DNA of 64,000 nt from Candidatus Fermentibacterota bacterium (GTDB lineage Bacteria > Fermentibacterota > Fermentibacteria > Fermentibacterales > JCC-6), in the NCBI GenBank assembly GCA_963845085.1, contig CAWJQI010000005.1:448502-512501 (forward strand), read 5' to 3'. The notes beneath the pieces were generated by a model. It ran no database searches. It had not been told where the DNA came from and saw only the letters and a list, made by a program, of their open reading frames with translations. Below, piece after piece: positions 9,048-17,654 of this stretch; positions within the stretch are counted from its first letter, which is position 1; every line of letters begins with the position of its first letter. The translations under genes and the position numbers were made by a program.

Positions 9048-10757
9048 ATGTCCCGCAGGATAGTTGAATGCGTGCCCAACATTTCGGAGGGAAGGAACAA
9101 GGCCGTCATCGACGCAGTGGTGAAGGCCGCTTCTGCCGTGAAGGGAGCCGCCGTTCTCGACGTCGATCCCGGCGCTGCAACCAACCGTACCGTTATCACC
9201 ATCGCCGGGGAACCCGAAGCAGTTCTTGAATCGGCATTCCGACTGATCGAAAAGGCCGGCGAGCTCATTGACATGAGGGTTCAGAAGGGCGCACACCCCA
9301 GGCACGGGGCCACCGATGTCTGCCCGTTCGTTCCTGTTAGCGGTGTCTCCATGGATGATTGTGTCGAACTGGCCCGCAGGCTCGGTGAAAGGGTCGGCGG
9401 AGAACTCGGGATCCCTGTCTACCTGTACGAGTTCGCGGCCACCAGACCCGGGCGCTGCAAGCTGCCCGACATACGCGCCGGCGAGTACGAGGCCCTGAAG
9501 GACAAGCTGGGCCGCGAGGAATGGGCGCCTGACTTCGGGCCGAACCGCTGGGACGACAAAGTTGCAAAAACCGGGGTCTGCACGATAGGGGCCAGGAACT
9601 TTCTGATAGCGTACAATGTGAACGTGAACAGCCGCGACACGTCGATAGCGAAGGAAGCCGCGCTGGCGATCCGCGACAGCGGAAAACCCGCACGAACATC
9701 CGACTGGAAGTTCGCACGGGACGCGCAGGGCAACAAGATCCAGGAAAAGGGCCGCCTCGATTGCTGCAAGGCCACGGGATGGTACATCGAGGAGTACGGA
9801 ACCTCCCAGGTGACCATGAACCTTACCGACACCTCGGTCACACCCCTGCACGTCGCGTATGAGACAACACGGGAAGAAGTCGAGAAACTTGGCGGCGTTG
9901 TCACGGGAAGCGAGATCGTGGGTCTCGTGCCGCTCTCCTCAATGCTCGATGCGGGCCGTTACTTCATCGAGAAGCAGAACAGGGGCCTCTCCGCGACAGG
10001 AAAACAGGCCGTGACGACAGGCCAGCCTGAACGCGAACTGGTGGAGACCGCCATCCGCAGCATGGGGCTGCGGGATGTTGCCCCCTTCAACCCGCGGGAG
10101 AAGATCATCGAGTACATGGTGTCCGATGGGAGTGTGAACCTCTCCGGAATGTCATGCAGGGATTTCTGCGACCAGCTCTCCATCGACAGCCCCGCTCCGG
10201 GCGGCGGCAGCGCAGCGGCCCTCGCAGGCGCCCTCTCCTCGGCTCTGGTTTCAATGGTTGCCAATCTCACCGTGAAGAATCGTGACTGCAGGATGAACTG
10301 GCAGGAGATGTGCGAGCTGGCTCCCAGGGCGCAGGCGATCAAGGAAAACCTGCTGGCTGCCATAGACGACGACACAAGGGCCTTCAATGGATGGATGGAC
10401 GCCGCCCGTTCGGGAGGCGACGTCCAGGCCGCGATCAGGGAGGCGGTGGAGGTGCCTTTGCGCGTTCTCAGGCTCTCCCGTGAGGCCGCCGAAATGGCGG
10501 TTGCGGTCACAGAGCGGGGCATGCAGGCATCCGTGAGTGATTCGGGAGTCGCAGCATCGGCGGCCCGCACCGCCGCAGAGGGCGCGTGTCTGAACGTTCT
10601 GATCAACCTCGGCGAGATCGACGATGCGAGTTACAGGGAAACCGTGAGAACCGAGGCTCTGGGGCTCCTTGATGAAACCGTTGCCATTTCAACCCGCATC
10701 TTCAACGGGATAAGGTCGGCTCTCGAGGTCAGGGCGGAACGCGGGGCGGAAAAGTGA
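9048..10757 (+). CDS. ftcD: Bifunctional glutamate formimidoyltransferase / formimidoyl-THF cyclodeaminase
   Basis: IVECVPNISEGRNKAVIDAV is the formiminotransferase N-terminal signature. The C-terminal SPAPGGGSAAALAGALSSALVSMVANLT is the cyclodeaminase signature. GGAGG lies 4 nt upstream of the ATG. Confidence 0.85.
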   Translation: MSRRIVECVPNISEGRNKAVIDAVVKAASAVKGAAVLDVDPGAATNRTVITIAGEPEAVLESAFRLIEKAGELIDMRVQKGAHPRHGATDVCPFVPVSGVSMDDCVELARRLGERVGGELGIPVYLYEFAATRPGRCKLPDIRAGEYEALKDKLGREEWAPDFGPNRWDDKVAKTGVCTIGARNFLIAYNVNVNSRDTSIAKEAALAIRDSGKPARTSDWKFARDAQGNKIQEKGRLDCCKATGWYIEEYGTSQVTMNLTDTSVTPLHVAYETTREEVEKLGGVVTGSEIVGLVPLSSMLDAGRYFIEKQNRGLSATGKQAVTTGQPERELVETAIRSMGLRDVAPFNPREKIIEYMVSDGSVNLSGMSCRDFCDQLSIDSPAPGGGSAAALAGALSSALVSMVANLTVKNRDCRMNWQEMCELAPRAQAIKENLLAAIDDDTRAFNGWMDAARSGGDVQAAIREAVEVPLRVLRLSREAAEMAVAVTERGMQASVSDSGVAASAARTAAEGACLNVLINLGEIDDASYRETVRTEALGLLDETVAISTRIFNGIRSALEVRAERGAEK

Positions 10758-12667
10758 TCAGGAGAACCTTCTTCCGCGAGGAATCCCTCTCCGCAGAAAT
10801 TGTCCGGGAGCTCGAGCGTTTCTGCCTCACCGCCCGGGGCAACATCCTCCACATGACAAGCCTTGCCGGGAGCGGTCACCCCGGCGGCTCGATGAGCAGC
10901 CTTGAAATACTCGCCCTGCTCTACAGCCAGGCCGCGGTCGACCCCAAAAACCCTTGCGGGAAGGGGCGGGACCGCATCGTTGTCAGCCACGGCCACGTCT
11001 CGCCCGCGGTCTACACAGTGCTCGGCGGGCTCGGATTCTTCAGCATCGATGACGCCGTGACAGGCTTCCGCCAGGCGGGCAGCTGCTACGAAGGTCATGT
11101 CGAAAGGCATCTTCCCGGAATCGAACTCACGTCGGGCAACCTGGGGCAGGGGCTGAGCGCCGCAACCGGAATGGCCGTTGCCGACCGGAGCCTCGGCCTC
11201 GGCAACCATGTCTGGGTGGTGACCGGCGACGGAGAGAACCAAAAGGGGCAGATAAGCGAAGCCAGGCGGTTCGCCTCAAAGTACCGCCTCGACAACCTCA
11301 CATGCATAGTGGACTGCAACCGCCTCCAGATCTCGGGCGCCACGAGTGACATCATGCCCGTGGACCACGAGGCCGAGTTCCGTTCCAGCGGCTGGGAGGT
11401 TTCCAGGGTCGACGGTCACGACCTCTGTGCTCTCTATGAGGCCCTCAGGCCTGCCGGTCAGCGAGTCCCCAGGCTTGTCATCGCTGATACGGTCATGGGA
11501 AGGGGGGTCTCCTTCATGGAGAACGACCCCGAGTTCCACGGACGCGCACTCTCGGCGGAAGAGCTCGGCGCGGCGCTCTCGGAACTGGGCCTTCCCGACA
11601 GGCTCGATGAGTTGAAGGCTGCACGTGCGGCAGGGGCACCGAGGCGTGCCGCCCACTGCGAGCCCTCATACCATGTCCTGGCATTCCAGGGAAGACCCGT
11701 CACCTATCCCGCCGGTCACCGCGGCGACAACAGGAGCGCATGGGGAGCAGCTCTTCTCGACCTTGCAAAGGCGAACATCAGCGATCCTCCGCTCGTGTTC
11801 GACTGCGACCTCGCCGGCAGCGTCAAGACTTCCGCCTTCAGGAAGGAGTTCCCGTCCTGTCACTTCCAGTCCGGCATCATGGAACATCACACCGCGACCG
11901 CCGCAGGGGGGGCTTCGCTCTCCGACAGAGTGGTTTTCTGGGCCGATTTCGGCGTCTTCGCCATGGACGAAACGTTCAACCAGCACCGGCTCAACGACAT
12001 CAACCACACGAACCTGAAGGTCGTCGCCACCCATTGCGGGCTGGATGTCGGACCGGACGGGAAGACCCATCACTGCATAAAATACGTGGGGCTGATGCGG
12101 GCTCTGCGCAACTACCAGACCATCGTCCCCGCCGATCCCAACCAGACCGACAGGGTCGTGAGGCATGCCGCCATGAACCCGGGCAACTTCTTCATCGCCA
12201 TGGGAAGGTCGAACCAGCCCGTCATCACGGGGGATGACGGAAAGCCTTTCTTCGGGGACAGCTACAGGTTCGTCTTCGGAAGGCCCGACACTCTCAGAGA
12301 GGGAACCGACGTGGCCATACTCGCCATGGGGTGCATGTGCCACAAAGCCCTGACGGTCAGAGATATACTTGCGAAAAGCGGAGTATCGGCACGCGTGATT
12401 GCGGTCAGCGCCCCGAACGCAATGGCTGACTCATTCGTCAGGGGACTTTCGAACTTCAGGCTGATCGTCACGTATGAAGACCATGACGCCGATACGGGCA
12501 TGGGTGCCGCGCTGGCCCTCAGCCTCTCCGAATTCGCTGCAAAGCCACCGCTTGCGCGCTTCGGTGTGCGGGAGTACGGGATGAGCGGCGAGCCCGAGGA
12601 CCTTTATCGAATGCAGGGGCTTCTGCCCGATCAGGTTGCGGAAGGGATTCTCGCCCGGCTGCCCTGA
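10754..12667 (+). CDS. tkt: Transketolase (fused N- and C-terminal halves)
   Basis: LAGSGHPGGSMSSLEILALLY (TPP-binding N-terminal signature), GNLGQGLSAATGMA, VVTGDGENQKGQ, and a pyrimidine-binding/C-terminal half. The GTG start overlaps the ftcD stop (GTGA). Confidence 0.85.
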   Translation: MIRRTFFREESLSAEIVRELERFCLTARGNILHMTSLAGSGHPGGSMSSLEILALLYSQAAVDPKNPCGKGRDRIVVSHGHVSPAVYTVLGGLGFFSIDDAVTGFRQAGSCYEGHVERHLPGIELTSGNLGQGLSAATGMAVADRSLGLGNHVWVVTGDGENQKGQISEARRFASKYRLDNLTCIVDCNRLQISGATSDIMPVDHEAEFRSSGWEVSRVDGHDLCALYEALRPAGQRVPRLVIADTVMGRGVSFMENDPEFHGRALSAEELGAALSELGLPDRLDELKAARAAGAPRRAAHCEPSYHVLAFQGRPVTYPAGHRGDNRSAWGAALLDLAKANISDPPLVFDCDLAGSVKTSAFRKEFPSCHFQSGIMEHHTATAAGGASLSDRVVFWADFGVFAMDETFNQHRLNDINHTNLKVVATHCGLDVGPDGKTHHCIKYVGLMRALRNYQTIVPADPNQTDRVVRHAAMNPGNFFIAMGRSNQPVITGDDGKPFFGDSYRFVFGRPDTLREGTDVAILAMGCMCHKALTVRDILAKSGVSARVIAVSAPNAMADSFVRGLSNFRLIVTYEDHDADTGMGAALALSLSEFAAKPPLARFGVREYGMSGEPEDLYRMQGLLPDQVAEGILARLP

Positions 12668-13758
12668 AGAATGGCCGAGTACTCGGCTCTGCCGGAAACG
12701 ATGCTCCAGTAGATTTGCTGGAAGCGGTCGCTTTCAGCGAGTTTTTTCATGGCCAGATCACGGAAGGGCCGGCCGTAGATCAGGTGGCGGTAAAACCCCG
12801 ATCGTGCCACCTGCCGGACGCACCTCGCCTTCGTGTTCCATGTGTCGGCTCCCTCCGTCAGGGCGACCGCGGAAAGAAAGCCGCTCTCAAGCGCGTGGGC
12901 GATCCCCTCTCCCGACACCCTGTCACAGAGCCCCGCCGCATCCCCGGCCAGCAGCACCCGCCCCCTGCCGGGAAACACGCCAGCGGTTGCCGGAGGGACC
13001 AGTCCGCCTGAGTAAGGTCTGTTCGAACCAAGTTCGAGATGTTCCAACAGGCTTTCAAAGGCTTTCCTGACCTTCCCCGGGTTGCACCGGGCTGCGAACG
13101 AGCCGAATCCGACGCACAGGTCTTCCCGCCTCGGGAACACCCAGCCGTAACCGTACGGTAGAATCCCGAAATGGATCTGGAGCCCGAGCGGGGAAAACCT
13201 TTCCATCACGGCCGGAGCAAGGGGAATGAAGGTTTCCAGGCAAAGACCGTGCCTGCCCCGGGGCCGTCCGAAGAAACGGCGTCTTACCAGGCTGTCAGCG
13301 CCGTCAGCGCCGACCATCCTCCGGAATCGGACCCTGCCGCCGCCCTTGAATACGGCCACGTCCTGACCATCGAACCCCTGGAATTCCCATTCCGTAAGAA
13401 TCCGCGCCCCGGTCTCGGCGGCCCTCCTTAAAAGAAAGGAATCGAAGGACATCCTGTCCACGAGCAGCATCTTCGGCTCCCCGGTAGTCCAGGTGCGCAG
13501 GAGGCTGAACGAGTCGAAGCATGAGAACACGCCGTGGCTTGCCTCGACAAGGTCTGTGATCTCCTGCGGAAGAAGCATGCCGCTTCCTGAGAGAAGGTTC
13601 GCTCCGAAATCGGACAGCGCACCGCCGCAGAGCTTGGGCCTTGGAAAAGCGCAACGGTCGGCCAGAACAACGTTCCGGCCCGTCGATGCGAGCTTCCAGG
13701 CGCAGGCGCAACCGGCCGGACCGCCTCCGACTACAAGAAGGTCAGTTTCAATAAGCAT
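12631..13758 (-). CDS. Geranylgeranyl-reductase-family FAD-dependent oxidoreductase
   Basis: DLLVVGGGPAGCACAWKLA (dinucleotide fold), PRPKLCGGALS, and GDAAGLCDRVSGEGIAHALESG (GGR-family C-terminal FAD motif). Start moved from TTG 13794 to ATG 13758 (MLIETDLLVVGGG). The 3' end overlaps the convergent tkt by 37 nt. Confidence 0.7.
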   Translation of the reverse strand: MLIETDLLVVGGGPAGCACAWKLASTGRNVVLADRCAFPRPKLCGGALSDFGANLLSGSGMLLPQEITDLVEASHGVFSCFDSFSLLRTWTTGEPKMLLVDRMSFDSFLLRRAAETGARILTEWEFQGFDGQDVAVFKGGGRVRFRRMVGADGADSLVRRRFFGRPRGRHGLCLETFIPLAPAVMERFSPLGLQIHFGILPYGYGWVFPRREDLCVGFGSFAARCNPGKVRKAFESLLEHLELGSNRPYSGGLVPPATAGVFPGRGRVLLAGDAAGLCDRVSGEGIAHALESGFLSAVALTEGADTWNTKARCVRQVARSGFYRHLIYGRPFRDLAMKKLAESDRFQQIYWSIVSGRAEYSAILQGSRARIPSAT

Positions 13759-13834
13759 GCCGGTGATATTCTTTATGCCGATGTGAAAGGGCAAGGCCGG
13801 GGGTATTTTCTATATTCCCTTCCGGAGGAAAACA

Positions 13835-15250
13835 ATGAAAATAGCTCTTGTGTATCCGAGATGGCAGTGGTACGAATACAACGGGCTGGCCGAACCAATA
13901 GGGGTGCTTCACCTTGTCGCCGTTCTCCGGAACGCGGGGCATACGCCGGTCTATATGGACTACTCCTCCTGCCGGAACATCACCGACCTCGACCACCTTG
14001 CTGAAGGGTGCGGCCTTGTCGGCATAGCCATCAGCGCGGCAGCAAAGATGGGCCGGGCCCGGGATGTGCTCACGCACCTCAGGTCAGTTGTGCCCGGGGC
14101 CCACTTCAACGTCGGCGGCGCATATCCGAGCATTTTTCCCGGGCTGAGCATCGAGGGCACCGGGGCGGATTCCGCAATGGTGGGTGAGGCCGAGGAAGCA
14201 ATTGTCGAGCTTGCCGACACCCTTGCGAAGGGCGGCGACTGGAGGTCCATCAGGAACATGGCCTACCCCGGCGCGGACGGCATCGTCGAGAACCCCCGCA
14301 GACCGGTGATACGTGATCTCGACACGATACCATACCCCGCGAGGGATGTTGTAGACTACGACTGGTACCTTGAAAACGGCATGAGCGAATACGGAATGGT
14401 GACAACCAGGGGCTGCCCCTTCCACTGCACCTATTGCAAGCCCAGCACCGATCTGATCTTCGGGGGGGGGATACGCCTCCGTTCCGCCAAAAACGTCGTC
14501 GGGGAGATCATGGAGCTTGCGAAGCTCAGGAACACCGACAGGATCCGCATCTTCTACAAGGACGACACCATAACCATGCACCCCACGAAGTGGTTCGAGG
14601 AGTACCGTGACCTGCTCCGCGAGGCCCGCCTGCATGTGGAATGGCACTGCAACAGCCGGGTCGATACCGTCACCCGTGAAAAGGTGCGCGTCATGGGTGA
14701 AAGCGGTTGCCACTGCATCAGCTTCGGCGTGGAAAGCGGCAGCCAGAAGATTCTTGACTGCTACGAAAAGGGAACAACCCCCGCCCAGGCTGAACAGGCC
14801 TTCAAATGGTGCCACGAATTCGGGGTGGAAGCCACGGCGAACATCATGATCGGCTATCCTCTCGAAACCCATGAAGACATCGACGCGACCTACAGGCTTC
14901 TGAAGCGGATCAAGCCCGATGACATAATCGTATATCTCTCGACCGCCATTCCCGGAAGGCACATCCATACCTGGGCGAAAGAGCAGGGCTACCTGATGTC
15001 GGACGAGAACCCCGAGCTCCTTGATCCTGCCCGCAACAGGGCCTGCGAGATCATGAACATGCGCCTGCCCTTCCTTGAACTTTCCGACGTGGTCGGCTGG
15101 AAGCACAAGATCGAACGCTACAGAAGCTGGCGCAAAGTAACAAGTATAAACAACATAGCTCGATGGGCCTCGGAGCTTGCCCGCGAACCGGGCAAGGCGA
15201 TGGGCAAGGCCGGAAAGGTCCTCAGGGGTTTCCGGGGCCAGGGAGACTGA
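13835..15250 (+). CDS. B12-binding-domain radical SAM enzyme (class B rSAM), copy 1
   Basis: The N-terminal MKIALVYPRW...IGVLHLVAVLRNAGHTPVYMDY is a B12-binding Rossmann-like domain. TTRGCPFHCTYC is the CxxxCxxC radical SAM cluster motif. GGAGG lies 6 nt upstream of the ATG. Confidence 0.8.
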   Translation: MKIALVYPRWQWYEYNGLAEPIGVLHLVAVLRNAGHTPVYMDYSSCRNITDLDHLAEGCGLVGIAISAAAKMGRARDVLTHLRSVVPGAHFNVGGAYPSIFPGLSIEGTGADSAMVGEAEEAIVELADTLAKGGDWRSIRNMAYPGADGIVENPRRPVIRDLDTIPYPARDVVDYDWYLENGMSEYGMVTTRGCPFHCTYCKPSTDLIFGGGIRLRSAKNVVGEIMELAKLRNTDRIRIFYKDDTITMHPTKWFEEYRDLLREARLHVEWHCNSRVDTVTREKVRVMGESGCHCISFGVESGSQKILDCYEKGTTPAQAEQAFKWCHEFGVEATANIMIGYPLETHEDIDATYRLLKRIKPDDIIVYLSTAIPGRHIHTWAKEQGYLMSDENPELLDPARNRACEIMNMRLPFLELSDVVGWKHKIERYRSWRKVTSINNIARWASELAREPGKAMGKAGKVLRGFRGQGD

Positions 15251-16233
15251 CCATAAGAACCCTCATCACATCCCTCTACTACGCAGTTCTGAGGTTCGCG
15301 GTCATCTGGTCGCGCAATCCGGAGTGGACGATCGGGCTTCTAACGAAACTGCGGCGCGTTTCGGACGGCAGAAGCAGGCTTCTCGAGGCGCATTTCCGAA
15401 GGATTTTCCCCGGTCTCGACGCATCGGGAATGAAACGGCTCATCAGGGATTACTGGAGCCGCCACAACAGGCATACCGTTGATCTCTTCCATCTTGAAAG
15501 GCTCACACCCGACGATCTCGCGGCGGTTGTTGAGTGGCGCGGCAGGGAGCATCTCGATGAAGCCTTGCTGCGCGGCTCGGGCACGCTACTGCTCGTACCC
15601 CACTTCGGGGACGAGAGAAGCATGCACATCCTGATGGGCATGGCGGGCTACCCTGTCGAGGTCATCTCGAGCCGCTATCTCGGCGAGGGAAGCATTCCCC
15701 GCAGGGCGAGGCTCGCCGTCGGGTCAAGATGGAACACACTGCACTTCCCCGACGAGAACCCCCGCTGGATGTACCGCGCCCTCTCCGGGAACAGGATCAT
15801 CCACTACTCCCCCACAGCCTTCGGCGGTCCGGGCGGCATCTGGGTCAACTGCTTCGGTGTGCCCGACCTCATCCCTGCCACCCCCTGGAAGCTCTTCCGG
15901 AAAACGGGATGCACAGTCCTTTTCGGCGCCTGTTTTGTCCTGCCCGGCATGAGGTTCAGGATCGAGTTCGAACCAATAGCGCTTCCCGATGATGCCGAGG
16001 GCTTTACCAGGGCGGTTATGAACCGCGTTGAACGATTGGGGCTTGAGCACCCCGGGCAGTACGACTGGAAAAACCTTGTGATACGCCACAGGGAATCGAA
16101 CACGATAGCGAGACTGGGCACGATACCGGCCTCGGAGGAGGTCCTCGAGCAGCTTGCGATCCCCGGCGACGAAGACCCCTGCCGGACGGGCAGGCTTGAA
16201 ACGCTCCCGAACCTCCGGGGTGGCCTGTCGTGA
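15163..16233 (+). CDS. LpxL/HtrB-family (lysophospholipid/lipid A-type) acyltransferase
   Basis: Hydrophobic N-terminus LITSLYYAVLRFAVIW, followed by LLLVPHFGDERSM at the position of the family's HFGNWE catalytic motif. The start is ambiguous. ATG 15163 gives an 88-nt overlap with the upstream gene. CTG 15247 would give a CTGA start/stop overlap. Confidence 0.65.
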   Translation: MGLGACPRTGQGDGQGRKGPQGFPGPGRLTIRTLITSLYYAVLRFAVIWSRNPEWTIGLLTKLRRVSDGRSRLLEAHFRRIFPGLDASGMKRLIRDYWSRHNRHTVDLFHLERLTPDDLAAVVEWRGREHLDEALLRGSGTLLLVPHFGDERSMHILMGMAGYPVEVISSRYLGEGSIPRRARLAVGSRWNTLHFPDENPRWMYRALSGNRIIHYSPTAFGGPGGIWVNCFGVPDLIPATPWKLFRKTGCTVLFGACFVLPGMRFRIEFEPIALPDDAEGFTRAVMNRVERLGLEHPGQYDWKNLVIRHRESNTIARLGTIPASEEVLEQLAIPGDEDPCRTGRLETLPNLRGGLS

Positions 16234-17654
16234 ACGTAACACTTGTCTACCCCTACTTCGGAACGGGGCACCGCAGCCTTTATTTCCCGCAGGGGCTGGC
16301 CTACGTTGCCGCCGCGCTTCAGAACGCCGGCCACCACGTTACGGTTATTGACATGGAGGGCGACGACCTTTCTGTCGAAGGGGCGCTTGATCTGATACGT
16401 GAAAGCGCGCCCGGCATGGTGGGCTTCGGTGGAATGATCACCCGGTACAAGATAGTCAGGGAGCTCGGCAGGCTTCTGAAGGCCGAAATGCCAAGAGTGT
16501 TCCTCATGGCGGGTAACAGCGGCGCGACAACCATTCCCGGCCTGTACCTCCAAAGCGCCGGGATGGACGGGGTTGTTCTCGGCGAGGGGGAGACCACGGC
16601 CGTTGAGCTTGCGCATGCTCTGGAAGCCGGCGCCGACTGGCGGGATGTTCCCGGGCTTGCCTTCAGCGACTCCGCCGGGAAAACCGTGTTTTCTCCTGCA
16701 AGACCCCTCCTCAAAAACCTTGACAGGCTTTCCTGGCCCGCGAGAGACCTGTTCCCCCTTGAAAAGTACGTGACAAGCCGTGACCACAGGGGCAGGCATG
16801 AAAGACACCTTGAAATCGTCGCCAGCCGCGGCTGTCCGCACGGCTGCACATACTGCTACCATATCTACGGCAGGACGATACGCCGCCGGTCCCCCGAATC
16901 GATAGTGACCGAGGCCGAACACATCGTGAAGAAATACGGCATAGAATACACCGGCTTTCCCGATGACCTCTTCACCAGCGACAAAGGCTTCGTCCTCGAG
17001 ACGTGCCGCCTTCTCGGCGAGAGGCTTCCCGGCATCAGGTGGTCGTGCCTTGGTAGGGCCTCAGAGGTCGACAGGGAGATGCTTCATGCCATGCGCAGGG
17101 CTGGATGCGACTGGATAAGCTACGGTATCGAATCAGGAAGCCCCGCGATGCTTTCCGCGATGAAGCGCACGGTTACACCCGAGCAGTGTCTCTCGGCAAT
17201 CCGGCTTACGCGGGCGGAGGGCATGCAGGCCGAGGGATCCTTCATGATAGGGATGTTCGGCGAGACGAGGGAAACGGTCGCGGAAACGGTGGAGTTCTGC
17301 AGAAAGGCCGACATCACGGCCCCGATGCTTTTCGTCACCCCCTACCCGGGTACACCCCTTTTCGATCTTGCCGAGAGCAGGGGGCTGATACCCGACCTGG
17401 AAGCCTACGTCCTCTCACTCGAGGCCGCCGACAAACTCCTGGTGAACCTCACCGACATGGATGACAGGGAACTCGAAAGCCTTCGCAAATGGGCAATGGG
17501 AAAGGCGGGACGAAACTACCTTCTCAGAAAGCCCTTCACCCGTGTCCCCTCCCTGCTCTGGAAGCATCTCACCCTGAGGGGCTTCGACCAGTTGACACGG
17601 GACGCCGCAGAATTCCTGAGGGGTTTCGGGAAGCCTCCCGCAGAACACCGGTAG
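16230..17654 (+). CDS. B12-binding-domain radical SAM enzyme (class B rSAM), copy 2
   Basis: VNVTLVYPYF...GLAYVAAALQNAGHHVTVIDM is the B12-binding domain. ASRGCPHGCTYC is the CxxxCxxC motif. The GTG start overlaps the stop of the acyltransferase (GTGA). Confidence 0.8.
   Translation: MNVTLVYPYFGTGHRSLYFPQGLAYVAAALQNAGHHVTVIDMEGDDLSVEGALDLIRESAPGMVGFGGMITRYKIVRELGRLLKAEMPRVFLMAGNSGATTIPGLYLQSAGMDGVVLGEGETTAVELAHALEAGADWRDVPGLAFSDSAGKTVFSPARPLLKNLDRLSWPARDLFPLEKYVTSRDHRGRHERHLEIVASRGCPHGCTYCYHIYGRTIRRRSPESIVTEAEHIVKKYGIEYTGFPDDLFTSDKGFVLETCRLLGERLPGIRWSCLGRASEVDREMLHAMRRAGCDWISYGIESGSPAMLSAMKRTVTPEQCLSAIRLTRAEGMQAEGSFMIGMFGETRETVAETVEFCRKADITAPMLFVTPYPGTPLFDLAESRGLIPDLEAYVLSLEAADKLLVNLTDMDDRELESLRKWAMGKAGRNYLLRKPFTRVPSLLWKHLTLRGFDQLTRDAAEFLRGFGKPPAEHR

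What the first reader, a model, noticed from the sequence alone, without database searches (positions are those of the whole stretch)
12631..17654. Coupled B12-rSAM / LpxL-type acyltransferase / B12-rSAM operon divergent from a geranylgeranyl-reductase-family gene
Two paralogous class-B (B12-binding) radical SAM enzymes (CPFHCTYC and CPHGCTYC clusters) bracket an LpxL/HtrB-family acyltransferase. The three genes form a tightly coupled unit, with stop/start overlaps at both junctions. A GGR-family flavoprotein is transcribed divergently, 76 nt away.

Class-B rSAMs typically methylate or form C-C bonds at unactivated carbons. Examples are hopanoid methylases, GDGT ring synthases, and the tetraether and membrane-spanning-lipid synthases that are also radical SAM enzymes. 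An acyltransferase sandwiched between two of them, next to an isoprenoid-type reductase, suggests a membrane-lipid tail-modification module. I cannot assign it to any characterised pathway.

FCB-group bacteria have been reported to encode archaeal-type lipid genes, which makes the GGR neighbour worth a look. The functional link is inference from gene order only.
Basis: inference. Interest (0 to 1): 0.6.

Follow-up and report, generated by a model that had tools for sequence, protein, structure and literature searches.

The report
Genus-specific radical-SAM/acyltransferase envelope operon
An uncultured Fermentibacterota bacterium has packed two vitamin-B12-type radical enzymes and an unusual lipid-A-type acyltransferase into one operon; the packing is confined to this genus, and the genes more likely decorate a cell-envelope glycolipid than reshape membrane-lipid tails.

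Summary
The four genes exist as described: a GGR-family flavoprotein (12631-13758, minus strand), B12-rSAM 1 (13835-15250), a PF03279 acyltransferase (about 15247-16233) and B12-rSAM 2 (16230-17654).

The organism belongs to Candidatus Fermentibacterota. All three plus-strand genes are phylum-specific orthologue groups, and none matches a curated equivalog.

The tight operon occurs only in this genus (8 of 8 genomes). One other genus has the order AcT-rSAM1-rSAM2. In a complete genome of another family the three genes lie more than 240 kb apart.

The evidence on functional linkage:
- rSAM1 and rSAM2 are kept or lost together (35 both, 8 neither, 4 one only).
- The acyltransferase persists without them.
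- A canonical LpxL lies elsewhere in the genome.
- The GGR/rSAM1 divergent pair is order-wide, but it sits inside a conserved housekeeping synteny block.

The archaeal-lipid idea fails. GGGPS and squalene/phytoene synthase are absent, and the only good UbiA member is a polyprenyl-phosphate phosphoribosyltransferase.

The sister clade of rSAM1 always heads an rSAM-GT2-DegT-formyltransferase operon. Six of the ten other class-B rSAMs in this genome sit among glycan genes.

Best reading (about 0.4): tailoring of an LPS-type or carrier-lipid-linked glycolipid. Main rival (0.3): unrelated genes juxtaposed at a plastic locus. Interest is moderate to low.

The parts
12631..13758 (-). GGR-family FAD flavoprotein, 375 aa from the ATG at 13758. 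It is probably a polyprenyl-chain reductase. It is the ancestral divergent neighbour of rSAM1.
   Evidence: **Family.**
- TIGR02032 scores 151.5 bits against a cut-off of 158.8.
- Pfam FAD_binding_3 matches.
- The best PDB match is digeranylgeranylglycerophospholipid reductase 3OZ2, E 3e-11 over residues 6-306.
- The motifs KLCGG, GYGWVFP and GDAAG are read from the sequence.

**Neighbourhood and distribution.**
- The divergent pairing with rSAM1 is seen in families f1 and f3.
- Its presence is only weakly tied to rSAM1 (Fisher p = 0.02, not corrected for phylogeny).
13759..13834 (.). 76-nt divergent intergenic region between the GGR-like gene and rSAM1.
   Evidence: - Read from the sequence.
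- No sigma-70-like promoter was found, which is uninformative for this phylum.
13835..15250 (+). rSAM1: a class-B (B12-binding domain) radical SAM enzyme, 471 aa, belonging to a Fermentibacterota-specific orthologue group.
   Evidence: **Family and fold.**
- PF02310 and PF04055 both match. No NCBIfam equivalog is reached; the best is HpnJ at 147 bits against a cut-off of 578.
- The AF2 model has pLDDT 92. Its best fold matches are MgmA, TsrM and AprD4, with TM up to 0.74.

**Orthologues and relatives.**
- Orthologues at 66-89% identity occur across the order.
- The sister clade, at 58-63% identity, always heads an rSAM-GT2-DegT-formyltransferase operon.
15247..16233 (+). AcT: a divergent LpxL/LpxM/PatA-fold acyltransferase, about 328 aa. 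The start is unresolved: CTG at 15247 or ATG at 15163. The subfamily is specific to the phylum.
   Evidence: **Family and fold.**
- PF03279 scores 48 bits.
- The AF2 model has pLDDT 89. Foldseek gives LpxM at E 1e-15 and PatA at E 1e-14.

**Subfamily features.**
- The motif VPHFGDE is invariant. The His is kept, but the acid lies at +3/+4 rather than +5.
- A conserved C-terminal tail of about 45 aa is absent from the genome's canonical LpxL.

**Distribution.**
- Only 104-135 homologues were found, none named outside Fermentibacterota.
- It is present in nearly every genome of the order, including those that lack both rSAMs.
16230..17654 (+). rSAM2: a second class-B radical SAM enzyme, 474 aa, 28% identical to rSAM1. 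It is co-inherited with rSAM1.
   Evidence: **Family.**
- PF02310 scores 71 bits and PF04055 89 bits. The best NCBIfam hits, BchE at 167 bits and HpnJ at 150 bits, are far below their cut-offs.
- The best PDB sequence match is AprD4 6FD2, E 1e-23.

**Distribution and context.**
- Orthologues at 58-84% identity occur across the order.
- It is kept or lost together with rSAM1: 35 both, 3 and 1 one only, 8 neither; p = 4e-6.
- In genus g8 the orthologue heads a PMT_2/YdjC/GT9/GT2/Bac_transf operon.
- The start is a GTGA overlap with the AcT stop.

Best explanation
This is a genus-specific operon that brings together three Fermentibacterota-specific genes for tailoring an envelope glycolipid.

**Proposed roles (all inferred).**
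- **AcT** is a second, divergent LpxL/LpxM/PatA-type acyltransferase. It is present in almost the whole phylum, alongside a canonical LpxL. I infer that it adds an acyl chain to a lipid-A-like or other sugar-bearing lipid at the inner membrane.
- **rSAM1 and rSAM2** are an accessory, co-inherited pair of class-B radical SAM enzymes. I infer that they carry out radical chemistry on the sugar or amino-sugar part of the same or a precursor molecule, or on its newly added chain. The possible reactions are C-methylation, AprD4-type dehydration to a keto-sugar, or HpnJ-type ring contraction.
- **The GGR-like flavoprotein** across the 76-nt gap is the ancestral neighbour of rSAM1. If it is involved at all, it more likely saturates a polyprenyl-phosphate carrier than an archaeal-type membrane lipid.

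**Shown:**
- the gene content, folds and orthology;
- the co-loss of the two rSAMs;
- the glycan contexts of the paralogues;
- the absence of archaeal-lipid, hopanoid and carotenoid genes.

**Inferred:**
- the substrate;
- the chemistry;
- that the three genes act on one molecule.
For: 1. **Co-inheritance of the two rSAMs.** Among the window's own genome plus the 46 held relatives of its order, 35 have both, 8 have neither and 4 have one. The losses fall in at least three genera. The two genes are also adjacent in independent arrangements: g1, g9, and convergent in G025.
2. **AcT next to rSAM1 in three layouts.**
   - g1: rSAM1-AcT-rSAM2.
   - g9: AcT-rSAM1-rSAM2.
   - G033: a second AcT copy convergent with rSAM1, inside an acyl-CoA-ligase/Wzx locus.
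3. **Sister clade of rSAM1.** It is 58-63% identical, and the clade has 97% SH-aLRT support. In 4 of 4 loci examined, covering all three subclades, it heads a translationally coupled rSAM-GT2-DegT-formyltransferase operon of ArnC/ArnB/ArnA-formyltransferase type.
4. **Other class-B rSAMs.** Six of the ten others in this genome lie among GT2, GT4, PMT_2 (ArnT-like), DegT, Bac_transf, WbuX or Wzx genes.
5. **The rSAM2 orthologue in genus g8.** It heads the operon rSAM2-PMT_2-rSAM-YdjC(HpnK-like)-PMT_2-GT9-rSAM-GT2-Bac_transf.
6. **AcT fold.** It matches LpxM and PatA about equally, and both acylate glycolipids.
7. **Lipid A is made.** LpxC is present in 21 of 21 genomes.
8. **Structural relatives.** The nearest solved relatives of both rSAMs include AprD4, which acts on an amino-sugar.
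Against: - **No direct evidence of substrate.** There is none for any of the genes.
- **The operon is genus-specific.** In the complete genome G039 the three genes are 240-730 kb apart.
- **Stand-alone orthologues.** In most genera rSAM1 and rSAM2 stand alone among housekeeping genes.
- **The g8 glycan operon is itself genus-specific.** Its PMT_2, YdjC and GT9 genes gave no match in this genome at E <= 1e-10. rSAM2 therefore cannot depend on it.
- **Paralogue contexts are indirect evidence.** Relatives of rSAM1 outside the phylum, at 43-45% identity, show no glycan context.
- **AcT does not need the rSAMs.** It is retained in all 8 genomes that lack both.
- **The locus is plastic.** The gap between transketolase and TldD holds different inserts in different lineages. 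Some of the adjacency may therefore be accidental.
- **Overlap is weak evidence here.** Start/stop overlap also couples unrelated genes in this genome (FTCD and TKT).
Confidence: 0.4

Rival explanations
1. There is no common pathway. Three independently acting, phylum-specific genes happen to be packed together at a recombination-prone site between the transketolase and TldD genes. The overlapping stops and starts reflect genome compaction.
For: - **The arrangement is confined to one genus.** Elsewhere the genes are dispersed. In G039 AcT lies at 1.49 Mb, rSAM2 at 1.73 Mb and rSAM1 at 2.22 Mb.
- **The TKT-TldD gap varies by lineage**. It holds any of:
  - AcT alone;
  - GGR with AcT;
  - GGR with two unrelated genes and rSAM1;
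  - a RiPP-like rSAM/SPASM/PqqD set with AcT.
- **AcT's more widespread site is among housekeeping genes:** SecDF, IscS, NifU and Rrf2.
- **Unrelated genes are also coupled.** FTCD and TKT share a GTGA overlap.
- **AcT is independent of the rSAMs**, and GGR is only weakly associated with them.
Against: - rSAM1 and rSAM2 are lost together in at least three lineages (p = 4e-6, not corrected for phylogeny).
- The two rSAMs are adjacent in independent layouts.
- A duplicated AcT lies beside rSAM1 at a different locus in G033.
- The compact operon is kept in all 8 genomes of the genus, which differ by about 11-36% at the protein level.
Confidence: 0.3
2. The genes form a membrane-lipid tail-modification module: the rSAMs methylate or cross-link unactivated carbons of acyl or isoprenoid chains, AcT installs the chain, and GGR saturates it.
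For: - Class-B rSAMs do modify lipid tails. Examples are GrsA/B, Gmm, HpnP/R and the ladderane candidates (review PMC13459092; bioRxiv 10.1101/2025.10.20.683597).
- The GGR-like gene carries GGR motifs, and its best PDB match is an archaeal lipid reductase.
- The GGR/rSAM1 divergent pair is conserved across two families of the order.
- In genus g8 and in G033, rSAM1 lies next to an acyl-CoA ligase.
Against: - **No equivalog reached.** HpnJ, HpnR, BchE and the ladderane-type lipid rSAM all score 58-167 bits against cut-offs of 360-650.
- **No isoprenoid-lipid genes.** GGGPS is above cut-off in 0 of 21 genomes and squalene/phytoene synthase is found in 0 of 21. The UbiA member is a polyprenyl-phosphate phosphoribosyltransferase.
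- **The GGR pairing lies inside a conserved synteny block** (NAGidase-FTCD-TKT-GGR-rSAM1...TldD), so the adjacency may simply be inherited.
- **GGR is absent from 11 of 47 genomes**, six of which have rSAM1.
- **The closest paralogues of both rSAMs sit in sugar pathways**, not fatty-acid or isoprenoid ones.
Confidence: 0.15
3. AcT is simply the second late acyltransferase of lipid A (an LpxM analogue). The two rSAMs serve an unrelated conserved function, for example modification of a protein, an RNA or a cofactor.
For: - AcT is near-universal in the phylum, as a core LPS gene would be.
- Its best sequence and fold match is LpxM.
- A canonical LpxL also exists, so the genome has the usual two PF03279 members.
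- rSAM1 is as conserved as core enzymes: 66-75% identity between families, against 60-66% for transketolase.
- Its best fold match is the protein methylase MgmA.
Against: - The rSAM pair is dispensable: it is lost in 8 genomes. That is unusual for a core macromolecule modification.
- The sister clade of rSAM1 is firmly tied to sugar genes.
- AcT lacks the HX4E spacing of LpxM and carries a conserved extra C-terminal tail.
Confidence: 0.15

Closest known systems
HpnI / HpnK / HpnJ of hopanoid producers: GT2 glycosyltransferase, YdjC-type deacetylase and B12-domain rSAM that makes the BHT cyclitol ether (PMC13459092, section 3.2)
   Same: - HpnJ is the top NCBIfam hit for rSAM1 and the second for rSAM2.
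- In genus g8 the rSAM2 orthologue shares an operon with a GT2 and a YdjC protein whose best NCBIfam hit is HpnK.
- The shared logic is a radical SAM enzyme remodelling the amino-sugar head group of a lipid.
   Different: - Scores are far below the equivalog cut-offs: 147-150 bits against 578.
- The phylum has no squalene synthase, so it makes no hopanoids.
- The window operon has no GT2 and no deacetylase; it has an acyltransferase instead.
Arn pathway of lipid A modification: ArnB aminotransferase, ArnA formyltransferase domain, ArnC GT2, ArnT GT-C. Established knowledge; the ArnC structure paper is PMC12690121.
   Same: - The sister clade of rSAM1 heads an rSAM-GT2-DegT-formyltransferase operon.
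- The DegT scores 284 bits on the ArnB model, and the formyltransferase's best hit is ArnA.
- PMT_2 (ArnT-like) genes accompany other rSAM paralogues.
   Different: - All scores are below the equivalog cut-offs.
- No ArnA dehydrogenase/decarboxylase domain was seen in the operon.
- The Arn pathway contains no radical SAM enzyme.
- The window operon itself carries none of these sugar genes.
LpxL / LpxM late lipid A acyltransferases and PatA, the PIM acyltransferase (PF03279; PDB 5KN7, 5F2T)
   Same: - The Pfam family is the same and the predicted fold is the same (Foldseek E 1e-15 and 1e-14).
- The catalytic His lies in a VPHFG context that aligns with the HFGTWE motif of LpxM.
   Different: - The score is only 48 bits, against 146 bits for the genome's canonical LpxL.
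- The acidic partner is at +3/+4, and the +5 position is Arg.
- There is a conserved extra C-terminal tail of about 45 aa.
- The subfamily is restricted to one phylum.
- The gene is not in a lipid A locus.
AprD4, a radical SAM 1,2-diol dehydratase acting on the amino-sugar paromamine (PDB 6FD2)
   Same: - It is the best PDB sequence hit for rSAM2 and the second best for rSAM1.
- It gives the highest TM-score to the rSAM1 model, 0.74-0.77.
- It shares the N-terminal Rossmann-like domain plus radical SAM barrel, and it has a sugar substrate.
   Different: - Identity is about 20%, and the NCBIfam AprD4 model scores 80-105 bits against a cut-off of 500.
- AprD4 belongs to an aminoglycoside antibiotic cluster.
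- Whether rSAM1 and rSAM2 bind cobalamin is unknown.
Lipid-tail radical SAM enzymes: Tes, Mss, Gms, GrsA/B, Gmm, HpnP/R and the ladderane-cluster rSAMs (review PMC13459092)
   Same: - Several are class-B rSAMs acting on membrane lipids.
- The ladderane-type model TIGR04072 gives weak hits of 104-122 bits.
   Different: - All hits are below cut-off (360 for TIGR04072).
- None of these systems is paired with an LpxL-type acyltransferase.
- The phylum lacks the archaeal-lipid genes.

Membership tests
Class-B (B12-binding domain) radical SAM | Radical SAM core (PF04055) with a CX3CX2C cluster motif | tested here: met
   - rSAM1 scores 81 bits, with CPFHCTYC at residue 194.
- rSAM2 scores 89 bits, with CPHGCTYC at residue 202.
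Class-B (B12-binding domain) radical SAM | N-terminal B12-binding-type Rossmann domain (PF02310) above the gathering score, and a class-B fold | tested here: met
   - PF02310 scores 39.2 and 71 bits against a cut-off of 32.1.
- The rSAM1 model (pLDDT 92) matches MgmA, TsrM, AprD4, CysS, TokK and OxsB.
- rSAM2 was not modelled.
Class-B (B12-binding domain) radical SAM | Actual cobalamin binding and use | not testable with these tools
   AprD4 has the same domain but, from my own knowledge, does not use cobalamin. The domain alone therefore does not decide the question.
HpnJ (TIGR03471) | Score above the equivalog cut-off, and a hopanoid pathway in the genome | tested here: not met
   - Scores are 147 and 150 bits against a cut-off of 577.6.
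- SQS_PSY is found in 0 of 21 genomes.
BchE (TIGR02026) with BchP (TIGR02023) | Scores above the curated cut-offs | tested here: not met
   - BchE scores 131 and 167 bits against a cut-off of 481.
- BchP-ChlP scores 104 bits against a cut-off of 343.
Ladderane-type lipid rSAM (TIGR04072) | Score above the equivalog cut-off | tested here: not met
   Scores are 104 and 122 bits against a cut-off of 360.
Tes / Mss / GrsA-B lipid rSAMs | Phylogenetic placement within those clades | not tested
   - No reference sequences or curated models for these clades were reachable.
- No such family appeared among the best 25 NCBIfam rows shown for each rSAM. The lower-scoring rows (36 and 30 families in all) were not shown.
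LpxL/LpxM late acyltransferase | PF03279 domain and the LpxM/PatA fold | tested here: met
   - PF03279 scores 48.2 bits against a cut-off of 22.3.
- Foldseek matches 5KN7/5KNK at E 1e-15, TM 0.62-0.67.
LpxL/LpxM late acyltransferase | HX4(D/E) catalytic dyad | tested here: inconclusive
   - The His is invariant, in the motif VPHFGDER.
- The position that aligns with E127 of LpxM is Arg.
- Asp and Glu occupy +3 and +4 and are invariant in 15 orthologues.
LpxL/LpxM late acyltransferase | Score above an NCBIfam LpxL/LpxM/LpxP cut-off, and being the genome's lipid A enzyme | tested here: not met
   - The best hit is 35.6 bits against a cut-off of 363.
- A separate canonical gene (PF03279 146 bits, HYGNWE motif) lies on contig C4.
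PatA (PIM acyltransferase, NF005919) | Score above the equivalog cut-off | tested here: not met
   - The score is 29.8 bits against a cut-off of 209.
- The fold match is good, with TM to target 0.77-0.80.
Geranylgeranyl reductase family (TIGR02032) | Score above the subfamily cut-off | tested here: not met
   - The score is 151.5 bits against a cut-off of 158.8, so it falls just short.
- PF22578 GGR_cat scores 17.6 bits against 27.
Geranylgeranyl reductase family (TIGR02032) | GGR sequence signatures (Cys in a CGG motif, YxWxFP, GDAAG) and nearest solved structure | tested here: met
   - KLCGG, GYGWVFP and LAGDAAG are present. The motif definitions come from my own knowledge of the TaGGR and SaGGR structure papers.
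- The best PDB hit is TaGGR 3OZ2, with these motifs aligned.
Archaeal-type ether-lipid pathway in FCB bacteria | GGGP synthase (PcrB family) and DGGGP synthase (UbiA family) present | tested here: not met
   - PF01884 is above cut-off in 0 of 21 genomes.
- The good UbiA member is a decaprenyl-phosphate phosphoribosyltransferase equivalog, 254 bits against a cut-off of 234.

The most novel reading that the evidence does not exclude
Fermentibacterota may make a so-far undescribed envelope glycolipid or lipid A decoration. In this reading, a family of about a dozen class-B radical SAM enzymes per genome rebuilds carrier-lipid- or lipid-A-linked amino-sugars anaerobically.

- The chemistry would be radical dehydration to keto-sugars that DegT enzymes then aminate, or HpnJ/Cds-type ring contraction, or C-methylation.
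- rSAM1, AcT and rSAM2 would be one such three-step module, ending in acylation by a phylum-specific LpxM/PatA-like enzyme.
- The neighbouring GGR-like reductase would saturate the polyprenyl-phosphate carrier, giving a dolichol-like carrier lipid in a bacterium.
Probability: 0.15. Interest if true: 0.65.

Novelty: new variant of a known kind. Interest (0 to 1): 0.33.

Why it matters
If the glycolipid reading is right, this uncultured phylum, common in anoxic sediments and anaerobic digesters, would use B12-type radical enzymes as routine tools for building its outer-membrane sugars. In aerobes, that job is done by oxygen-independent dehydrogenases and ordinary methyltransferases.

The reading would give a function to a large, unannotated block of 'BchE/HpnJ-like' genes in anaerobe genomes. 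It would also add a new branch to the LpxL/PatA acyltransferase family.

As it stands, the finding is one more uncharacterised rSAM-containing envelope cluster. Its gene order is not conserved, so its value is as a lead rather than a discovery. The useful negative result is that it gives no support to archaeal-type or membrane-spanning lipid synthesis in this FCB lineage.

Tried and rejected
1. **Equivalog assignment.** None of the four proteins reaches an NCBIfam cut-off.
2. **Archaeal-lipid link.** Rejected: there is no GGGPS, and the UbiA member is a DPPR-synthase type.
3. **Hopanoid or carotenoid link.** Rejected: no SQS/PSY.
4. **AcT as the ordinary LpxL.** Rejected: a canonical LpxL lies elsewhere in the genome.
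5. **AcT plus rSAM pairs outside the phylum.** I searched for AcT homologues with a single sequence and then with a profile. Both searches returned only Fermentibacterota-type proteins, so no cross-phylum test was possible.
6. **Neighbourhoods of the nearest non-phylum rSAM1 relatives (43-45% identity).** They show no consistent context.
7. **Neighbourhoods of dispersed rSAM2 orthologues.** They are housekeeping genes (MetK, TPR proteins, HtrA, DnaK) and uninformative.
8. **AcT's widespread site.** It sits among SecDF/Isc genes and an inositol-monophosphatase-family gene. This is only a faint hint toward inositol lipids, and I did not pursue it.
9. **Promoter and terminator scan.** There are no promoter hits, and the terminator count is at chance level.
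10. **Fold searches.** They confirm the families but cannot separate LpxM from PatA, or methylase from dehydratase.
12. **Literature search.** I found nothing on Fermentibacterota lipids, or on rSAM enzymes paired with LpxL-type acyltransferases.

Full report
**1. What is in the sequence**

ORF listing and translation give four genes.
- A 375-aa flavoprotein lies on the minus strand at 12631-13758, starting from the ATG at 13758.
- A 76-nt gap follows.
- On the plus strand come rSAM1 (13835-15250, 471 aa), an acyltransferase that I call AcT (frame open from 15163, stop at 16233), and rSAM2 (16230-17654, 474 aa).

Pfam confirms the domain assignments.
- Both rSAMs carry B12-binding (PF02310) plus Radical_SAM (PF04055) domains.
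- AcT is a Lip_A_acyltrans (PF03279) member at 48 bits.
- The flavoprotein matches FAD_binding_3 and has a weak GGR_cat hit.

The cluster motifs CPFHCTYC and CPHGCTYC are present. The two rSAMs are 28% identical.

The AcT/rSAM2 junction is a GTGA overlap. The rSAM1/AcT junction is less clear.
- The rSAM1 stop is TGA at 15248-15250.
- The only canonical start that keeps the conserved AcT N-terminus is the ATG at 15163, which gives an 88-nt overlap.
- The alternative is CTG at 15247, which gives a CTGA overlap.
- In two genomes of the same genus, no ATG/GTG/TTG lies upstream of the conserved N-terminus at all.
- AcT is therefore probably started at a near-cognate codon or by reinitiation.

One caution applies. 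FTCD and transketolase just upstream are also GTGA-coupled, so overlap in this genome does not by itself indicate a shared pathway.

**2. Who carries it**

The window is contig C5:448502-512501 of a 2.45-Mb, five-contig genome. Source names on homologues place it in Candidatus Fermentibacterota: Fermentibacteria, Aegiribacteria and Sabulitectum.

The held relatives form one order with three families. After that, the tool's list of relatives jumps straight to 'same domain'.

**3. No curated family fits**

In NCBIfam the best hits are HpnJ and BchE at 131-167 bits, against cut-offs of 481-578. The ladderane-type lipid rSAM scores 104-122 bits against 360. HpnR, PhpK, MgmA-type, AprD4 and the others are all far below their cut-offs.

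AcT's best LpxL-type hit is 36 bits against a cut-off of 363. The flavoprotein scores 151.5 bits on the GGR superfamily model, just under the 158.8 cut-off. Its best PDB match is the Thermoplasma lipid reductase 3OZ2, with the CGG, YxWxFP-like and GDAAG motifs aligned.

The predicted structures are confident.
- AcT has pLDDT 89. Its fold matches LpxM (E 1e-15) and PatA (E 1e-14) about equally.
- rSAM1 has pLDDT 92. Its fold matches MgmA, TsrM and AprD4, with TM up to 0.74-0.77.

The folds confirm the families. They do not fix the substrate or the chemistry.

**4. Is the arrangement conserved?**

I searched the window's own genome and 60 relatives with each of the four proteins. I then mapped the genes on 40 fetched loci.

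- **Own genus (8 of 8 genomes):** the layout is identical, GGR<->rSAM1-AcT-rSAM2.
- **Genus g9 (2 of 2):** GGR<->AcT-rSAM1-rSAM2.
- **Genus g8:** GGR<->AcT, or AcT alone, at the same site. Both rSAMs lie elsewhere.
- **Genus g6:** a GGR fragment next to AcT, with no rSAM1 or rSAM2 orthologue anywhere in the genome.
- **Family f3 and genus g5:** rSAM1<->GGR, with AcT and rSAM2 elsewhere.
- **Complete genome G039:** the three genes lie at 1.49, 1.73 and 2.22 Mb.

AcT's more widespread site is among SecDF, IscS/NifU/Rrf2 and an inositol-monophosphatase-family gene.

The GGR/rSAM1 pair lies inside a conserved block: NAGidase-FTCD-TKT-GGR-rSAM1...TldD. Its conservation may therefore be inherited synteny. 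The stretch between transketolase and TldD is plastic. Metagenomic contigs show GGR with two unrelated genes and rSAM1 there, or a RiPP-like rSAM/SPASM/PqqD set facing AcT, or GGR facing AcT.

**5. What linkage survives**

- **rSAM1 and rSAM2 travel together.** Of the 47 genomes (the window's own plus the 46 held relatives of its order), 35 have both, 8 have neither and 4 have one. Fisher p = 4e-6, not corrected for phylogeny. The double losses fall in three genera, in genomes that are 87-96% complete. The two genes are also adjacent and convergent in G025, and 12-25 kb apart in two other g2 genomes.
- **AcT meets rSAM1 in three different layouts.** Two are g1 and g9. The third is G033, where a second AcT copy is convergent with rSAM1 inside an acyl-CoA-ligase/Wzx...gyrB locus.
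- **AcT does not need the rSAMs.** It is present in all eight genomes that lack both.
- **GGR is only weakly associated with rSAM1** (p = 0.02). It is missing from most of genus g8, whose members mostly keep the rSAMs.

**6. Which kind of molecule?**

Several results argue against membrane-lipid tails or archaeal-type lipids.
- PcrB/GGGPS is above cut-off in 0 of 21 genomes.
- SQS/PSY is found in 0 of 21.
- The one good UbiA-family protein is a decaprenyl-phosphate phosphoribosyltransferase equivalog, 254 bits against a cut-off of 234.

The evident isoprenoid substrates in this phylum are therefore polyprenyl-phosphate carriers. LpxC is present in 21 of 21 genomes, so lipid A is made. A canonical LpxL (PF03279 146 bits, HYGNWE motif) lies on contig C4.

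AcT is thus a second, divergent family member. It has an invariant VPHFGDE motif, in which the acid is shifted relative to the HX4E of LpxM. It also has a conserved C-terminal tail of about 45 aa. Searches with a single sequence and with a profile found only 104-135 homologues, all Fermentibacterota-type.

Several results point toward sugars.
- **The tree of rSAM1 homologues.** It splits into an rSAM1 clade and a sister clade, rSAM1', at 58-63% identity. Support is 97% for the sister clade and 99% for the two together.
- **The rSAM1' operon.** All four rSAM1' loci examined, from all three subclades, carry a coupled rSAM1'-GT2-DegT-formyltransferase operon. In two of them a Wzy_C gene lies upstream.
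- **Arn-like partners.** The DegT scores 284-288 bits on the ArnB and PseC models, and the formyltransferase's best hit is ArnA.
- **Other paralogues.** This genome has 12 class-B-type rSAMs. Six of the ten others lie among GT2, GT4, PMT_2 (ArnT-like), DegT, Bac_transf, WbuX or Wzx genes.
- **Genus g8.** The rSAM2 orthologue heads the operon rSAM2-PMT_2-rSAM-YdjC-PMT_2-GT9-rSAM-GT2-Bac_transf. The best hit of the YdjC protein is HpnK. In the same genus, rSAM1 follows rSAM-FGE-acyl-CoA ligase-Wzx.
- **Solved relatives.** The closest solved relatives of both rSAMs include AprD4, which dehydrates an amino-sugar.

Known precedents for radical SAM enzymes that rebuild a lipid's sugar head group are HpnJ and calditol synthase (PMC13459092).

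**7. Weighing the readings**

The context evidence is indirect.
- It comes from paralogues and from lineage-specific operons.
- The g8 glycan operon is mostly absent from this genome.
- Most rSAM1 and rSAM2 orthologues stand alone among housekeeping genes.
- Relatives outside the phylum show no glycan context.

I therefore put about 0.4 on tailoring of an envelope glycolipid: lipid-A-like or carrier-lipid-linked, with AcT as the acylating step and the rSAM pair as accessory radical steps. I put about 0.3 on unrelated genes juxtaposed at a plastic site.

**8. Comparison with the known, and novelty**

The enzyme families are well known. Radical SAM enzymes inside envelope-glycolipid clusters are a recognised but mostly uncharacterised theme.

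Earlier notes of this scan describe similar pairs of PF03279 acyltransferases with B12-rSAMs, and Arn-like clusters with HpnJ/K-like genes, in other anaerobes. I did not test those notes.

This locus is a new variant. Its acyltransferase subfamily and rSAM clades are phylum-specific, and its gene order is fixed only in one genus. The review of lipid-modifying radical SAM enzymes lists no system paired with an LpxL-type acyltransferase.

Interest is moderate to low.

**9. Limits**

- Sequences of Tes, Mss and Grs could not be brought in for a tree.
- The co-occurrence statistics are not corrected for phylogeny.

Noticed in passing
window 15163-15260, and L003-L009 (same-genus loci): AcT has no canonical start codon that keeps its conserved N-terminus, except an ATG 88 nt inside rSAM1.
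- In G007 (L005) and G006 (L009) even that ATG is missing. Only CTG or ATT codons overlapping the rSAM1 stop (CTGA / ATTGA) are available.
- This suggests a near-cognate start or termination-reinitiation.
   Followed up: partly
G000:C4:677800-683500 (L047), L063, L064, L065: There is a conserved, translationally coupled operon: unknown (~360 aa)-rSAM1'-GT2-DegT-formyltransferase.
- rSAM1' is the sister clade of rSAM1.
- In L063 and L064 a Wzy_C gene lies upstream.
- It looks like an Arn-like amino-sugar pathway in which a radical SAM enzyme may stand in for the usual dehydrogenase step.
   Followed up: partly
L044 8738-18249 and L054 4505-15448 (genus g8): Genus g8 has a nine-gene operon: rSAM2-PMT_2-rSAM-YdjC(HpnK-like)-PMT_2-GT9-rSAM-GT2-Bac_transf.
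- It carries three class-B rSAMs in one glycan operon.
- Its PMT_2, YdjC and GT9 genes gave no match in the window's genome at E <= 1e-10.
   Followed up: partly
G000:C5:650000-661000 (L060), outside the window: A cluster of three class-B rSAMs, three GT2 genes and one PMT_2 (ArnT-like) gene lies next to clpB. Paralogues of its rSAMs appear across the order in the rSAM2 search.
   Followed up: partly
G000:C5:814412-815083, outside the window: The only good UbiA-family protein of the phylum is a decaprenyl-phosphate phosphoribosyltransferase equivalog (254 bits against a cut-off of 234). This hints at a DPA/arabinan-type polyprenyl-phosphate-pentose donor in a diderm FCB lineage.
   Followed up: no
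G000:C5:~537000-539900, outside the window: A 580-aa ORF appears to fuse an IspH/LytB-like N-terminal half to a weak UbiA-like membrane domain.
- ORFs of 575-606 aa with the same weak UbiA hit occur across the order.
- The IspH assignment rests on reading the sequence, not on a family search.
   Followed up: no
window 9048-12667: FTCD and transketolase are GTGA-coupled. They remain adjacent, with NAGidase upstream, in families f1 and f3. This is a conserved pairing of seemingly unrelated enzymes.
   Followed up: partly
window 12631-12667: The transketolase and GGR-like genes converge and overlap by 37 nt. No intrinsic terminator was found between them.
   Followed up: no
L067 1272-4842 (JGI metagenome contig): In one Fermentibacterota lineage, the slot upstream of AcT holds a RiPP-like set instead of GGR: PqqD, rSAM-SPASM, rSAM and ScmC. 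This shows that the TKT-TldD gap is a plastic insertion site.
   Followed up: no
whole genome G000: This 2.45-Mb genome carries twelve class-B-type radical SAM genes. Relatives returned about 4-12 matches each at E <= 1e-20. That is an unusually dense paralogue family for a small genome.
   Followed up: partly
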